NCBI RefSeq assembly: GCF_018977255.1
Contig: NW_024704756.1
Span: 3,286,001 to 3,350,000, forward strand
Length of the DNA: 64,000 nucleotides
From: Callorhinchus milii
Lineage: Eukaryota
Direction: 5' to 3'
How positions within the stretch are numbered: position 1 is the first letter of the stretch; each line of letters opens with the position of its first letter. A program made the position numbers. Positions 38,401 through 47,400 of this stretch are shown here, piece after piece.

Positions 38401-41400
38401 AATGACATAAGGTACTTAAACATGTTAACATTTATTGATAGGTTAGAACAGAAGATCATAGAAGACAAAGATAAAATGTAATACAGGCAGTCATTTTCTG
38501 TTGTTAGGGACGTATGTTATTATAATCTGTGTGTACGGTATTTGTAATCACAGCAAAATCTAATTCACATTCAAAGGATAACATTGTAAGTTGCAAAAGA
38601 AGAAAAAATTGCTTCATTCACAAAGTAGGACTATGGTTCCTTTCACAATTCAAAGTCCTCTTTGTTTATTCTGAAGTTGAATGAAGTTTAATCTGAAAGG
38701 GAAGTTAAATGAGTTTCTTTTAAATAGATCAAGCTAAATTGATTAAAATTTGCAATTCTAGGGAATTCTAGGCTCTGGGACAGCTGGTCTGTTTTGTTTA
38801 GCTCACAAACTTGCTGAAAATACATTAGTACCACAATACAATGCTACTGAGAAATCAAGAGCAACTTCAGTACTGTATTATTAATGTTTAATAAAATGTA
38901 CCTTCAAAACAATTCTAAAGAAAAATGAAACCATTTTAAAAGCATTCAGTCTAACTCTACCTGACTTTTCTGCTCATTTTCTCTTCTACCTCATTTTCTT
39001 CTTTCTATATTTAATAATTTAACTCATTTTACATCATTTCTAAACTAAATTGAACATTATTTTTGATATTCATTTTAGATCTGGGTCCTAGATAAATAAT
39101 ATTCAGCCACGGCTTAGTTAAGCACAGTTTCCTATGACCTGTGATGTGAATTTCCCACTTCCTCGAAGTAATACTGCATTGTTTTGCAATTTTTTCCTTC
39201 CTCTCGTTGAAGTTCCTTTTTCATTCTACAAAAAACTGATGGTCCATGCGCAGAACTATTATTTGTGTGTGAGCTTTGATAATTAGTATTGGCAGGCCAT
39301 TTGACCACAGGGGAACTGTCCTATCCTCACTCAACATTCACAGGCTCACATTTTGGCAGTGGGTCAATATTTATTAATAAGGAGCAGGAACCCTGGCAAA
39401 ATATCCTAGGATCGCTAAGAATTATTGTTGAAATCAGCTAAATAAGCACAGACCAAGGATCTGTGCTGGGCCCTTCCTTGTCTGTATGATTCAACTAATC
39501 ATCAATCAAACTTACTGAGCTGAGCCATCAAAAGTGTTCAGTAACAGACACTTAATTGAGTGTGATAATTTATTTGGATGGAATTCTAATTCATTGATCA
39601 TGATAAGGACCCACCTTCTAGTAATTTATCATAGCATTCTTCACAGTGCACAATCCTGCTATGAATCCACAAGTTATCTCCAGCTTCCAAGTCTCCCAGG
39701 GGTGCACTGCATTTGCCACACTGCAGAAGTACACAAAAACAGAGCAGTTTAATTCTCACTCTTACTTTCCCATTGCACTCACCACTTTAGAAATTATTAT
39801 TATTATAGAAATGTATTAATTAATCAGTGTTTAAACTCAATCAGTCGTGATGCAACATCAGAGCATTCAAAATACTTGCCAGACATACAGGTAGTTTTAT
39901 GGGGTTGGAGTCCTGTCTTACTCTCCAGTCTATCAGTTAAGCGAGATGAGTGTCAATAATTCTCAATTCAGCACCATACTGGGTGATGAAAGATGTTAAG
40001 ATATTGATGGTTTGGATACTTTTATCAGTTATGACATATATCATGTCAAACTTTGGTAGAGCAGTGCAAGCTGGCAGCACAGATCATACAGGAGAGCCAG
40101 CTGCTTTCGTCCTAAAAAGTACCCAGTGACTGGGAAAGGCTGAAAATGTCCTGTGCGAATATCAAAACTATGTTTACAACAAAAAGTGTTCTCAGTTTCC
40201 TGCAATTATGCAGCATTTACCTTAAAACAGGATGGGTGGCTACAGATGTTCAGATGTTCAATTATTATCTTGATGTCTTCCAGAGCCATTCCACAAAAGG
40301 TGCACTCCCTGTCCAAAACAGTTAAAACAATTGTAACTTGGTCATCTTTGCCAAGCTGTTCCTTATCCTGTGTGTTCCCATTATTTAGAGGAAATTAGCA
40401 CAACTTCGTCTAAGTTACACTGAATGGCAAATCACTGTAGGAATGTAGATGCCAAAGGGGAAGAATATGAAGTGAAATTAATGTACAATATATAAGCAAC
40501 CAGTTTTGATTGGTCTGTATGTTTAGTCCAGTCATAAATGCAAATATGTGAGAGAAACTGAGGATACTCATTTGTAAGTCACAGAAGCTATTGAATATGC
40601 AATGATTCAGGAGCTGAAAACTGTATTTTGTATGTACTTTTGGCAGTAAATACAGTATGTGGAAATGGTCATCTGATTTATGGTATAAAGTCTACATCCA
40701 ATGACAGCACTTTGTATTCTCAGCCTTTATATCATATTTGTGTAGACAGATTTTATGAATCAGGCTAACTGAATCAGGCTACATGTATGCATTGGGGAAA
40801 TGGCAGGAGAGTTCAGTATTCAGTGCCCTAGGACATCCTCCCAATGTGAAAGGTGCTTTACAATTTTGTTGTTGTTGAGAATGAGGTTGAACGGATAGCT
40901 CTTGGGACAAATGGCCTTCTTCTGTATAGTAAATTATGATTTATTTTGGGACATTTGATGACAATTTGGAGAATTAAAAAGAATGTTATTTGGTTTCTTG
41001 TAGAAATAGTTTGCCAGATTATTTCAGATAATACGCACAGTAAACAGGATTTACCTCTCTGGAGCCTGAAACAATTCAGGATCTACTTTTGCCATCAGTA
41101 CGTTGTGAATTTCTTTTTTTATAACAATCACATTCCTGTTGTGGGAAATAATAGAAAATTGTTAAAAGCAGAATAGAATTTAATCTGATTTCACAGAAAA
41201 CATAATGGAAGAAATTCCACTCAAAGGTAAAACAGATAAAAGAGGCAGAGAGAAAACGTAGACCACCAGTAGCCAAGTGAATAGAGATACAACACAGTGC
41301 AGTACTAGATTATATATTCCAGAAAGTCAGAACTTCAAATCCCACTTTGTGCTTAGTTTGTGGAACAATGGCAATTAGGACAAAGTAGCGGTGAGTGAGT

Positions 41401-44400: not shown

Positions 44401-47400
44401 CAAGCTCCATGCTGGGACTTTGAACTCACTGGCCAGGCTATCTTCTCTAGTGCAGTACTAGAGGAGTGCTGGAATGTGGAAGCTGCTATTCTTTATATAA
44501 GATGTAAAACTAAGGCCCCATCTGCCTGTACAGGTAGACATTAAATATCTCATTGCACTTGAAAAGAGAAGGGAGTTTCTCCTGGTGTCTTGGACGACAA
44601 TCCCTCAGATAAAACTGGTTATTGGCTAGGCTGTTTGTGAAACATTGCTGTGCACAAGAGTCAGTTCACCTACAAATAACATACTTACTACACTTAATAG
44701 TAAATCGTTTGAGTGTTTGTTAATATGCATTCCATTTACATTATACCCCAGGTAGTTAGAAATTATTATGACCTTCGGCATATTCTTTGGGTGAACATGA
44801 TTCATCCTCAGAACTGTTCGTCTTGTTCAGTGAATTATTCAATGAATGTCTACAGCAAAGGTCTATAGGTTTGGATGAAAAAGATTGAATGCTGTGTTGA
44901 ACGTGACGGTTTGGCATCAAAGGAATATTGTGAGATTATCCTCCATTCTTTACTAATTGTATAATGGTACAAAGAAGCAAAAATAATATCCTCACCTTCT
45001 CACTGCAAATGTTGGAGGTGAGGATTCTGTCACTGGAGCCGAAGAGTCTTTGCTGTCAGTATCATCATCAGCATAAGCATTCAGCCTGTGACAAAGGTAA
45101 AGCTCCAAGGTGTATTTAGGATTTCTCATAATGTATCATTGATACTATGATAAAGTAAGTCATACACTCAAATGTACAGTGAGCTGATCAACAGCTGACC
45201 AAATATCAGCACAAAACAAGCCCTACAGAATCAACTGCAAAGTGTGTTCACCTGAGTCGGGAAGAGTTGAAATGTGAAGGTTTTGAAAGGCGTTAAATAA
45301 AAAGGATTTGGTTGGAAATGCTCAAAGTAGCATCAACCCTTCTGGACAGTGATCATGATAAAGTATTCAGAAGCTCTAAGTTCTAGCAATGTGCATTGTC
45401 TTGAGTCAATTAAAACAATTGCCCCTCCGCTATAACTGATATAGTCTATTGCTACTGTGTCAGTGAAAGTCTTTTTTTAATCCCTCATCAATTTTCGCCC
45501 TCCTCTTCTGAAGAAGTTCAACTGTTTTTTTCCTTCAATTGGGATTCAGTTAAACACTCGAGCAATACGATTCAGTGTTGTAAAGTGACCGAAACCTCAC
45601 CCGTTGATTGCTTGTACACTCTCAAGTTTCTTTTCTCTACTCAGGTTTGATGTCTCAGTTTTAGCTACCATTGAGAAGCATGAGCCAGGAGCAGACAAGA
45701 ACGAAAAACAATGTGAGGACAGGAATAGTGGTAAATCAGAACAGACAACAACTATAATGATAATAACTTGCAATTATATAACGCTCCTCACGCAGGGTAG
45801 CGGCCCATAATAATAATAATAATCCTTGCATTTGATATAGCGCCTTATTAAGTCGTTGAGAAGCACATGACAGATTATACTGTAAAGTAGAATGACTATT
45901 TTGTGGGCAAAACGCAGCAGCCAGTTTGTACACAGAGGTGTCCCACTAACAGCCATGCAGTGAGTGATCAATTTTATCTGAATTTGATATTGTGCCTTTC
46001 ACTTCGGAAAGACATCCCAAAGTGCCTCCGAGGTAAAGTGCAAAGGAAGTGATTGTAGTGTGTTTTATTACAATATACAATATATATACAATATATACTA
46101 CAATATACATTCAGAAGGTTGGTGGAGCTAATGTTGCCCTTACTGTGGTATGCCGTCTTCCTCAAGCCCAACCTGATTGCTGTATATCCAGCTACTGTCA
46201 TCCTTCAAAGGAATTCTCTTTAACATCTGGTTAATCACATGCTGTCTGTCCTCCTCCGCAGGAGACGTGAACTTCGGGGATCCAAAGTCTGAGGAAGATT
46301 AAAAAAGCGGGTGGAAAGCACTTTCTCACCGCAGACAAATATCTTGCCACCAAAACTGAGATATGTCTGGGTTACCCCAATGATGACAGAGACAACACTC
46401 TTGCTGGTGCGCAGATATGTTGACAAATTTAAGAGCTTAAAATTTAATTTTGTGCAGAATTGTGGAAAATTCCTTAAATTCAGCTTTAATTTGGTGGCTA
46501 GTGTTCTGTAGTTTTCTTAAAATCAACTGCCATACTGAATAAGAAGTAACTAACCCTATGATTGTCAGATTAACACAAACACAGACCTTGCAGGCTGTCA
46601 GAATCATAGGATTGTCAGGTTAGTGTAACCACAGGATAATTGAGTCTAATCAAAATGTTATACGACTCATAATTAGCACAAAAGGGCTTGCTTGATTTTG
46701 AAGTTGGTTGCATGGTTTAGTAGACAGGAGAGCGGCCTTACCTTTCTTGACCGTAACATAGTTGTTACTGCCGTTTGTTGTCATATTGAAAGATTTGTGG
46801 GTTCCGATGCTCAAGCCAGACCCCTGGTGAAAGATGTACAATCTTTACAAAACAAAGTTAATGGAGTAGGTGCATTACAACATCAAAATGTGTCTGAGCA
46901 CACAGGCTATGAAGTACAGCTCAAAGAAAATGGATGCTGGAAGTCTGATATAACAACTAAATGTTAGAAACATGCAGTGGACTAATCATGCAAACAATAC
47001 AGCACATAAAGGGTTATTCAACCCATTGTGTCTTTGCTGGTATGTGCCCCCTCCACTGGAGCTATCCACTCTAATCCCATTTCCCTGCTCTTTCTGCTTG
47101 CCTTTTATTATTTTTCCTCTAAATATTTATCCGTTTATATCAGCATCTAAAAGGGAGCGATAGGTTAACATTTTGAGTAAGACCCTTTGGAAGAAATGTA
47201 AAATTGTTCATTGATGCACACAGCAGAATGTAAACTTAGATTACCTGTATAACACAGGAGTCAAAGCACTAATCCGGTTACATTCAAGTACTGTTACCAG
47301 CAATTCTGAGGTCTGCCAATTGTAACATCATTCTCCCAGTACAACACTATGGAAATAAGTCATTTTCGATACCTGAGATCTTAATTGAAATATTCCTTTG

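What the first reader, a model, noticed from the sequence alone, without database searches (positions are those of the whole stretch)
38688..46784. Hidden compact ZNF185/sciellin-like LIM gene missed by the ORF track, with mosaic ZNF185 and SCEL features
Seen: the ~16 kb between the SLAIN-like promoter and the NSDHL 3' end looks empty in the ORF track, but ~12 small minus-strand exons splice in frame to ~313 aa ending in a complete LIM domain. Knowledge: mammalian ZNF185 and its paralogue sciellin are ~690 aa epithelial LIM proteins. The LIM here looks mosaic: IIEHLNICSH and CGKCSAPLGDL are ZNF185-like, while EAGDNLWI..VHCEECY with a separate tiny last exon is SCEL-like. The N-terminal NYVTVKK and LKDDSSWI also recall SCEL. 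Inference: a less-than-half-size, possibly ancestral-like family member in a cartilaginous fish, useful for tracing the origin of cornified-envelope scaffold proteins.
Basis: partly seen in the sequence, partly recalled or inferred. Interest (0 to 1): 0.8.

Follow-up and report, generated by a model that had tools for sequence, protein, structure and literature searches.

The report
Compact ZNF185-type LIM gene beside NSDHL
A small, many-exon gene for a cytoskeleton-adaptor protein ending in a LIM zinc-finger domain really lies here; by its neighbours it is the counterpart of ZNF185, an ordinary new member of a known family.

Summary
All 5 quoted peptide strings are in minus-strand frames. Twelve AG..GT-bounded exons plus a short tail (46784 to about 38688) give about 321 residues (lengths).

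Only the two LIM exons are proven by homology. A profile of 148 family C-termini hits them alone among 3717 window frames (E=1.6e-14 and 6.6e-6). The second LIM exon finds 39 proteins among 1.84 billion. The relatives that carry a name are called sciellin.

The N-terminal KD..SWI exon is weakly supported (E=0.82, 3 of 4 invariant columns). The seven to eight middle exons rest on splice signals and reading phase only. One junction (E2 to E3) is in frame only through a weak acceptor.

The gene order VAMP7, SLAIN-like gene, LIM gene, NSDHL matches pigeon (VAMP7, SLAIN-like, ZNF185) and turkey (VAMP7, ZNF185, NSDHL). So this is the positional orthologue of ZNF185. The SLAIN neighbour is normal for ZNF185 outside mammals, not a sciellin trait.

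The "mosaic" and "ancestral-like" readings are not supported, and the small size lies within the family's range (299-737 aa). No named ZNF185 protein could be fetched, and the exons were never joined.

The parts
46742..46784 (-). E1, candidate first coding exon. ATG at 46784-46782, 14 codons + 1 base, donor AAG|GTAAGG.
   Evidence: It has A at -3 and is phase-compatible with E2. No homology support: its best matches in relatives are internal, not N-terminal.
46173..46288 (-). E2, the N-terminal family motif exon (..KRIPLKDDSSWIYSNQ). 116 nt, enters in phase 1 and leaves in phase 0.
   Evidence: The acceptor has pyrimidine share 0.82. It is the only window frame hit by the N-terminal profile of 117 relatives, but at E=0.82. 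It keeps 3 of 4 invariant N-terminal columns. W falls at about residue 48, against 46 in P0023.
45601..45664 (-). E3, with a strong donor (CGG|GTGAGG). The acceptor at 45664 needs phase 1, so it fits E1 but not E2. An alternative weak acceptor at 45653 fits E2.
   Evidence: No homology.
44996..45085 (-). RepA, a 90-nt phase-2/2 exon ending ..SSPPTFAVR.
   Evidence: It has the same length, phases, start (LN) and end motif as RepB. The pair is only 31% identical, E=0.44, with 90 of 163 DNA columns identical including flanks.
44084..44173 (-). RepB, a 90-nt phase-2/2 exon ending ..FPSPTFVAR.
   Evidence: donor score 8. A ..(S/T)F(T/S)xR(V) motif occurs at residues 73-341 in 25 of 193 relatives. 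That pattern was chosen after seeing this exon, so it is a lead only.
43545..43601 (-). E6, a 57-nt phase-2/2 exon.
   Evidence: pyrimidine share 0.76, donor score 8. No homology.
42545..42583 (-). E7, a 39-nt phase-2/2 exon.
   Evidence: pyrimidine share 0.94, donor score 6. No homology.
42214..42315 (-). E8, a 102-nt phase-2/2 exon.
   Evidence: donor GAA|GTAAGT. No homology.
41720..41815 (-). E9, a 96-nt phase-2/2 exon, acidic (..GDDSGELSD..).
   Evidence: The acceptor is weak (0.53). No homology.
41055..41135 (-). E10, an 81-nt phase-2/2 exon just before the LIM.
   Evidence: It lacks the pre-LIM motif that the relatives share: the family profile matches only from its position 20 on.
40221..40308 (-). 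LIM1, the first zinc finger of the LIM domain (C-x2-C-x18-H-x2-C, ends ..CFK). It leaves in phase 0.
   Evidence: Family profile E=6.6e-6, profile positions 20-56. It keeps 7 of 12 invariant columns. tblastn matches of P0030, P0034 and P0038 end here and resume in LIM2.
39615..39720 (-). LIM2, the second zinc finger (C-x2-C-x21-C-x2-C) plus 6 residues. Its donor GAAG|GTGGGT leaves phase 1.
   Evidence: 39 proteins at E<=1e-3 among 1.84e9. Family profile E=1.6e-14. It keeps 10 of 10 invariant columns.
38665..39600 (-). Unresolved 3' end with four readings. (1) Read-through of LIM2 to the stop at 39600-39598, with AATAAA at 39574-39569. (2) Mini-exon 38914-38904. (3) Mini-exon 38813-38803.
   Evidence: Four unnamed relatives (P0010, P0011, P0017, P0028) read like unspliced translations. 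They show the same exon start and a phase-1 break 5 residues after the last Cys. So a tiny last exon is a family trait.
54074..57750 (-). Upstream neighbour, same strand: NSDHL. The exons seen lie between 57750 and 54074.
   Evidence: Pfam 3Beta_HSD, E=1.4e-8 and 2e-6. PDB 6jkg, 'Sterol-4-alpha-carboxylate 3-dehydrogenase, decarboxylating', E=1.4e-18.
17062..35952 (-). Downstream neighbour, same strand: a SLAIN-family gene. Its G+C-rich probable first exon is at 35266-35952.
   Evidence: Pfam SLAIN PF15301, E=4.2e-28 (20217-20411), 5.7e-8 (17062-17412) and 0.0043 (19630-19860). The first exon itself got no SLAIN hit. GC is 0.53-0.54 at 34-38 kb.
2066..7619 (+). Next neighbour: VAMP7.
   Evidence: PDB VAMP7 chains, E=1.7e-26. 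Pfam Longin E=1e-10, and Synaptobrevin below its cut-off.

Best explanation
The interval holds a real protein-coding gene on the minus strand. It is the positional orthologue of ZNF185 and a member of the sciellin/ZNF185 family, whose LIM belongs to the LMO7 class.

It is built from about 13 very small exons. Two N-terminal exons carry the family's K..L.KD.SWI motif. They are followed by a run of phase-2/2 cassette exons, which can be included or skipped without changing the frame. The single C-terminal LIM domain is split by a phase-0 intron between its two zinc fingers. The tail is very short.

By analogy with ZNF185, the product would work as a cell-cortex and junction adaptor. An N-terminal part would bring it to actin-rich structures, a flexible Ser/Thr/Pro/Asp-rich middle would act as a modifiable linker, and the LIM would act as a protein-binding module.

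Shown: the LIM exons, their family, their junction and the gene order.

Inferred: the exact exon chain, the start codon, the 3' end, expression, and all of the function.
For: Sequence evidence:
- LIM2 alone finds 39 proteins at E<=1e-3 among 1.84e9. I dropped 1 of the 39, P0001: it has 7 stretches, matches only query residues 18-35, and has no LIM in Pfam. In 31 of the other 38 the match ends within 10 residues of the C-terminus (my count from the table).
- Pfam reports LIM in 7 of 10 hits scanned, all below its cut-off at 17.2-22.1 bits.
- Names: P0020 is 'sciellin isoform X2 [Oreochromis niloticus]'. P0158 is 'sciellin isoform X1 [Protopterus annectens]' and is 79% identical to P0023.
- A local profile of 148 family C-termini hits only the LIM2 and LIM1 frames among 3717 window frames (1.6e-14 and 6.6e-6; the next best is 0.88).
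- 20 of 26 columns invariant in 9 relatives are kept.
- The exon junction coincides with contiguous residues of relatives, and with exon edges seen in four unspliced-looking relatives.

Gene order:
- The window order is VAMP7, SLAIN-family gene, LIM gene, NSDHL.
- Turkey lists '...VAMP7, ZNF185, NSDHL, CETN2' (PMC8470100, table passage).
- A human 260-kb NSDHL duplication includes part of ZNF185 (PMC6208182, passages).

Against: - No protein named ZNF185 came back. All named relatives in the 120 rows and the 62 rows are called sciellin, LIM zinc-binding or mucin-like. ZNF185-named clusters appeared only as look-alikes of P0021 in the Atlas (0.94 and 0.93).
- The LIM is only about 50% identical to its best relatives (14-15 of 28 and 17 of 31; the medians are 11 of 28 and 15 of 31 over 182 proteins).
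- Pfam gave no LIM hit for either half alone, and PDB gave nothing significant.
- Family motifs are missing. There is no ..NFGK..L..YKS motif anywhere in 37000-54100, no pre-LIM motif, and no ..KW.. tail.
- The N-terminal exon scores only E=0.82.
- The E2/E3 phase conflict stands.
- The middle exons have no homology, and at loose thresholds the other strand yields as many candidates.
- No expression data were available.
Confidence: 0.7

Rival explanations
1. It is the orthologue of sciellin (SCEL), not of ZNF185. On this reading the gene is the fish 'sciellin' that sits upstream of a SLAIN gene, as SCEL does upstream of SLAIN1.
For: Every named relative found is called sciellin. A SLAIN-family gene lies directly downstream on the same strand, and in human 13q22 the gene list runs MYCBP2, SCEL, SLAIN1, EDNRB (PMC8084434, passage).
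Against: The flanks are VAMP7 and NSDHL, the neighbours of ZNF185 in turkey and human. Pigeon has a SLAIN motif-containing protein-like gene between VAMP7 and ZNF185. No MYCBP2 or EDNRB was seen in the window. No run of 20-residue repeats like the one in P0005 was found. Names of fish proteins are given automatically.
Confidence: 0.1
2. It is a single pro-orthologue of both ZNF185 and SCEL, an undivided ancestral-type gene.
For: The LIM is about equally distant from all family groups in hand. The protein is short. Both an NSDHL and a SLAIN neighbour are present.
Against: The same three-gene order exists in birds, which have both ZNF185 and SCEL. The blocks KCTD12..SCEL, SLAIN1, EDNRB and KCTD12-like..ZNF185, SLAIN-like..EDNRB2 look like an old block duplication. 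I recall, but did not test, that this duplication predates jawed vertebrates.
Confidence: 0.05
3. It is a decaying or no longer expressed gene. On this reading only the LIM exons are still recognisable, and the rest of the 'model' is chance open frames between chance splice signals.
For: Several family motifs are missing. There is a phase conflict at E2/E3. The middle exons lack homology. Loose-threshold candidates are as frequent on the other strand. 5 of 12 invariant LIM1 columns are changed.
Against: Both LIM exons are open with all 8 zinc ligands and canonical AG/GT sites. 10 of 10 LIM2 invariant columns are kept. There is an unbroken phase-2 chain of eight exons into LIM1. Strong phase-2/2 exons number 4 on the minus strand against 0 on the plus strand. 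The central regions of relatives are themselves unalignable: identity among 9 relatives is 27-36%.
Confidence: 0.12

Closest known systems
[quoted passage not shown]
   Same: - Position: downstream of NSDHL and next to a SLAIN-like gene and VAMP7.
- A single LIM at the extreme C-terminus.
- Many small exons: a partial human copy already spans 16-18 exons (PMC6208182).
- A non-LIM N-terminal targeting part (PMC9834212, PMC6755960).
   Different: About 321 aa against 689 aa in human (the 689 comes from 'aa 305-689' in PMC9834212). No direct sequence comparison was possible, because no named ZNF185 was retrieved. Whether the short N-terminus is an actin-targeting domain is unknown.
Sciellin (SCEL), the cornified-envelope precursor
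   Same: - The family: an N-terminal K..L.KD.SWI motif, a repetitive centre and a C-terminal LIM with ..AGD..W...HCE.C.
- The same intron places in the LIM.
- A SLAIN-family gene downstream.
   Different: Different flanks: NSDHL and VAMP7 instead of MYCBP2 and EDNRB. It lacks the ..NFGK..L..YKS motif, the pre-LIM motif and the ..KW.. tail shared by the sciellin-named relatives. It has no run of 20-residue repeats like P0005. That human sciellin has 16 such repeats is recalled, not from a call.
LMO7 / LIMCH1 (LMO7 class of LIM domains)
   Same: Koch et al. 2012 place the LIM of ZNF185 in the LMO7 class (PMC3305314, passages). A protein named LMO7 came back with the family profile at E=9.9e-17 (P0191).
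   Different: No PDZ or CH domain. The protein is much shorter and has a different N-terminus.

Membership tests
sciellin/ZNF185 family | A single LIM domain with all eight zinc ligands | tested here: met
   Read exon by exon. LIM1 has C-x2-C-x18-H-x2-C and LIM2 has C-x2-C-x21-C-x2-C. Family profile E=6.6e-6 and 1.6e-14. It keeps 7 of 12 and 10 of 10 invariant columns.
sciellin/ZNF185 family | The Pfam LIM model (PF00412) matches the whole domain | not tested
   The domain spans two exons and the joined step was left out. Each half alone gives no LIM hit. Relatives themselves score below the cut-off, at 17.2-22.1 bits against 22.9.
sciellin/ZNF185 family | The LIM sits at the extreme C-terminus | tested here: met
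   All four readings of the 3' end leave 7-11 residues after the last Cys. In 31 of 38 relatives the match ends within 10 residues of the end.
sciellin/ZNF185 family | The N-terminal K..L.KD.SWI motif near residues 36-47 | tested here: inconclusive
   3 of 4 invariant columns are kept, and W falls at about residue 48. The E2 frame is the only window hit of the N-terminal profile, but at E=0.82.
sciellin/ZNF185 family | A second N-terminal motif, ..(D/E)NFGK..L..YKS.. | tested here: not met
   No match in any minus-strand frame of 37000-54100. The motif was defined from sciellin-named and unnamed relatives, and may not hold for ZNF185.
sciellin/ZNF185 family | A phase-0 intron between the two zinc fingers, and a phase-1 intron a few residues after the last Cys | tested here: met
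   In the window the breaks are CFK|C (phase 0) and a donor 6 residues + 1 base after the last Cys. P0010, P0011, P0017 and P0028 show the same edges. The second site is one codion later here.
ZNF185 orthology group | Location between VAMP7 / SLAIN-like and NSDHL | tested here: met
   Window neighbours identified. Bird and human orders come from PMC10698677, PMC8470100 and PMC6208182.
ZNF185 orthology group | Sequence closer to named ZNF185 than to named sciellin | not testable with these tools
   No ZNF185-named protein was returned.
ZNF185 orthology group | [quoted passage not shown] | not testable with these tools
   It is defined by experiment in human cells (PMC9834212, PMC6755960). No model or sequence of it was available.
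SCEL orthology group | Location beside SLAIN1 / EDNRB / MYCBP2 | tested here: inconclusive
   A SLAIN-family gene is adjacent, but which SLAIN it is was not tested. MYCBP2 and EDNRB were not seen. The other flanks are those of ZNF185.
SCEL orthology group | A central run of about 20-residue repeats | tested here: not met
   No further copies of any exon were found in the window. RepA and RepB are 31% identical at E=0.44. That these repeats define sciellin is recalled; they are seen here only in P0005 and P0013.

The most novel reading that the evidence does not exclude
This compact gene may show the minimal shared core of the ZNF185/sciellin family: only the K..L.KD.SWI motif and the split C-terminal LIM. 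Everything between would be a lineage-specific string of frame-neutral (phase-2/2) cassette exons.

With the conserved order VAMP7, SLAIN-like, ZNF185, NSDHL, it would give positional proof that ZNF185 and SCEL are twin genes of one old block duplication: KCTD12-like / ZNF185 / SLAIN-like / EDNRB2 against KCTD12 / SCEL / SLAIN1 / EDNRB. On that view the cornified-envelope scaffold arose by expansion of cassette exons on one twin.
Probability: 0.3. Interest if true: 0.4.

Novelty: new member of a known kind. Interest (0 to 1): 0.3.

Why it matters
This is mostly an annotation point. A real family member lies in a stretch that an ORF list leaves empty, because its exons are only 39-116 nt long.

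It also corrects the reading of the locus. The SLAIN neighbour does not make the gene sciellin-like, because birds have the same VAMP7, SLAIN-like, ZNF185 order.

If the short product is confirmed by transcripts, it bounds what the ZNF185/sciellin family needs at minimum. It also gives an outgroup-side data point for how these epithelial scaffold proteins grew their repetitive middles.

My searches of the paper library found no paper that treats the ZNF185/SCEL relationship or a shark member. They returned only co-expression lists and one LIM survey, which left SCEL unclassified.

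Tried and rejected
- Pfam on 9 exon peptides: 0 of 9 reached a cut-off, and neither half gave a LIM hit.
- PDB with LIM2, LIM1 and a 9-protein family profile: nothing significant (best E 1.1 and 0.2; 0 hits).
- Word-index search with the contiguous LIM2 frame, option 'longer': 2 candidates, none scored. 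So no protein of 94-2000 aa in that set shares this exon closely.
- Atlas with LIM2: only unnamed 39-44 aa clusters, which is uninformative.
- The listing of cluster members: switched off, so the 39 representatives have no names of their own.
- Search for a good phase-0-to-2 exon between E2 and RepA: none found.
- Search for the ..NFGK.. motif, the ..KW.. tail and the pre-LIM motif: none found.
- RepA and RepB as a true repeat: not significant (31%, E=0.44).
- The (S/T)F..R motif in 25 of 193 relatives: kept as a lead only, because the pattern was chosen after seeing the exon.
- CETN2 beyond NSDHL: no EF-hand loop pattern in 58000-64000.
- Rfam and ARAGORN on 36-54 kb: one tRNA-like match at the threshold, and no tRNA gene.
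- The repeat finder failed on a strand error and was not repeated.

Rejected readings:
- An 'unrelated LIM family': the family profile and the invariant columns speak against it.
- A 'human contig': I did not take the window for human.

Full report
WHAT IS THERE

The window is vertebrate-like DNA with one run of N (62609-62824), which I left alone. I did not take the window for human.

Reading the minus strand and tabulating the sites gives this model:

| Exon | Coordinates | Note |
|---|---|---|
| E1 | 46784-46742 | ATG at 46784 |
| E2 | 46288-46173 | |
| E3 | 45664 or 45653 to 45601 | two possible acceptors |
| RepA | 45085-44996 | |
| RepB | 44173-44084 | |
| E6 | 43601-43545 | |
| E7 | 42583-42545 | |
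| E8 | 42315-42214 | |
| E9 | 41815-41720 | |
| E10 | 41135-41055 | |
| LIM1 | 40308-40221 | |
| LIM2 | 39720-39615 | |
| tail | unresolved | four readings, see below |

All exons are bounded by AG and GT. Their lengths sum to 961 coding nt, about 321 residues (my arithmetic).

THE RULE ON SPLICED MODELS

I searched the model exon by exon, and the joined step was left out. No search, Pfam scan, fold or tree of the spliced product, or of the whole LIM domain, was run. This limits several tests below.

WHAT IS PROVEN

The two LIM exons are proven by homology.

- LIM2 (35 aa) alone, scored against 1.84 billion representatives, finds 39 proteins at E<=1e-3 and none at E<=1e-10.
- I dropped one row, P0001. 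It has 7 matched stretches, matches only query residues 18-35, and has no LIM in Pfam.
- In 31 of the other 38 the match ends within 10 residues of the protein's C-terminus (my count from the table).
- Pfam reports LIM in 7 of 10 hits scanned, all slightly below its cut-off.

The sequences show one family. It has an N-terminal K..L.KD.SWI motif, a repetitive Ser/Thr-rich centre and a C-terminal LIM.

Names came from two further searches. P0020 is "sciellin isoform X2 [Oreochromis niloticus]". P0158 is "sciellin isoform X1 [Protopterus annectens]". No row in the 120 rows or the 62 rows is named ZNF185. The Atlas does hold ZNF185-named clusters, as close look-alikes of P0021 (0.94 and 0.93).

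A local profile of 148 family C-termini, run against all 3717 stop-to-stop frames of the window, hits only two. These are the LIM2 frame (E=1.6e-14, profile positions 44-87) and the LIM1 frame (E=6.6e-6, positions 20-56). The next best frame has E=0.88.

Of the columns invariant in nine aligned relatives, the window keeps 10 of 10 in LIM2, 7 of 12 in LIM1 and 3 of 4 in E2.

The LIM1/LIM2 junction is confirmed without joining. tblastn matches of P0030, P0034 and P0038 end at the LIM1 edge and resume at the LIM2 edge. Four unnamed relatives that read like unspliced translations (P0010, P0011, P0017, P0028) show the same exon start. They also show a phase-1 break five residues after the last Cys.

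WHAT IS WEAK

- E2 is the only window frame hit by the N-terminal profile of 117 relatives, but at E=0.82.
- E1 and the exons from E3 to E10 have no homology.
- RepA and RepB share their length (90 nt), phases, first two residues and the end motif P.PTF..R. But they are only 31% identical, E=0.44, with 90 of 163 DNA columns identical.
- At loose thresholds, candidate phase-2/2 exons are as common on the plus strand (10) as on the minus strand (12). At donor score >=7 and pyrimidine share >=0.65 the count is 4 against 0.
- E2 leaves in phase 0, while E3 with its good acceptor (45664) needs phase 1. The frame is kept only through a weak acceptor 11 nt downstream (45653), or by going from E1 straight to E3. 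That second path gives about 286 aa without the family motif.
- The 3' end has four readings. One is read-through to the stop at 39600-39598, with AATAAA 24 nt beyond it. The others are mini-exons at 38914, at 38813 and at 38692.
- Family motifs seen in the sciellin-named relatives are absent here..NFGK..L..YKS, the pre-LIM motif and the ..KW.. tail.

WHICH GENE IT IS

The neighbours decide this.

- Upstream on the same strand lies NSDHL (Pfam 3Beta_HSD; PDB 6jkg, E=1.4e-18).
- Downstream on the same strand lies a SLAIN-family gene (PF15301, E=4.2e-28).
- Beyond that lies VAMP7 on the plus strand (PDB VAMP7, E=1.7e-26; Longin).

[quoted passage not shown] This comes from PMC10698677 (passages of Tables 1 and 3) and is in agreement with PMC10588866 (passages).

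A turkey interval lists "...VAMP7, ZNF185, NSDHL, CETN2" (PMC8470100, table passage). A human 260-kb NSDHL duplication takes in part of ZNF185 (PMC6208182, passages).

The window's order is therefore that of ZNF185.

But it reflects two parallel gene blocks, not a mosaic gene. That these blocks stem from the early vertebrate genome duplications is my inference from recalled knowledge. It was not tested.

HOW IT LIKELY WORKS

This part is inference. ZNF185 has an N-terminal actin-targeting part and a C-terminal LIM that serves protein binding. It sits at cell-cell contacts with E-cadherin and is a PKA substrate (PMC9834212; PMC6755960).

Sciellin is a cornified-envelope precursor and is also found in a fish barrier tissue (PMC11171596, passages).

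I expect the product here to be a small cortical and junctional adaptor. It would have a short targeting head, a flexible middle made of skippable cassette exons, and a LIM tail.

COMPARISON AND NOVELTY

The LIM is about 50% identical to the best of 182 family LIMs and about equally far from all groups. So sequence alone does not place it.

The small size is not exceptional. Relatives run from 299 to 737 aa.

Koch et al. 2012 put the ZNF185 LIM in the LMO7 class and left SCEL unclassified (PMC3305314, passages). A protein named LMO7 came back with the family profile.

My paper searches found no treatment of the ZNF185/SCEL relationship or of a shark member.

VERDICT

This is a real gene and a new member of a known kind: the positional orthologue of ZNF185. 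Its exon model is only partly verified. Interest is modest.

Noticed in passing
window 2066-7619 (+): VAMP7 exons: longin and SNARE parts. The 61-aa frame at 2066-2251 matches PDB VAMP7 chains at E=1.7e-26.
   Followed up: yes
window 17062-35952 (-): A SLAIN-family gene whose G+C-rich probable first exon and promoter (GC 0.53-0.54 at 34-38 kb) begin only about 2.7 kb beyond the LIM gene's last polyadenylation signal. Which SLAIN paralogue it is was not tested. Birds have a 'SLAIN motif-containing protein-like' gene at this place.
   Followed up: partly
window-wide; for example 45768-46050 (-), 37852-37870, 52180-52198, 61249-61267: A dispersed SINE-like repeat. A 19-base core has 17 matches at up to 3 mismatches, against 0.01 expected. 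One copy lies in the intron between E2 and E3. A tRNA-like head at 52008-52080 reaches Rfam's tRNA score exactly at the threshold (29 bits), and ARAGORN calls no tRNA there.
   Followed up: partly
window 45653-45664 (-): Two AG acceptors lie 11 nt apart in front of E3. The upstream one fits the phase of E1 and the downstream one the phase of E2. This could be a pair of alternative 3' splice sites tied to skipping of E2.
   Followed up: no
window 39569-39600 (-): If the LIM2 donor is not used, the frame stops after 5 more codons, and an AATAAA follows 24 nt later. That makes a short terminal form without the tiny last exon possible.
   Followed up: no
window 62200-63000: A low-complexity, strongly G/C-skewed repeat region surrounds the only N run (62609-62824). 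The N run was left untouched.
   Followed up: no
relatives P0162, P0163, P0165, P0166, P0179, P0180, P0184, P0187, P0189: Carp-family (cyprinid) members of this LIM family are named 'mucin-22-like', 'mucin-5AC', 'mucin-2-like' or 'nucleolar protein dao-5' by automatic annotation, probably because of their Ser/Thr-rich centres. Names in this family are unreliable guides to orthology.
   Followed up: no
relative P0001: The top-scoring representative (E=3.8e-9) is a repetitive, non-LIM protein matched in 7 stretches to the last 18 residues of the query. It is an artefact of summed repeats and was dropped from the counts.
   Followed up: partly
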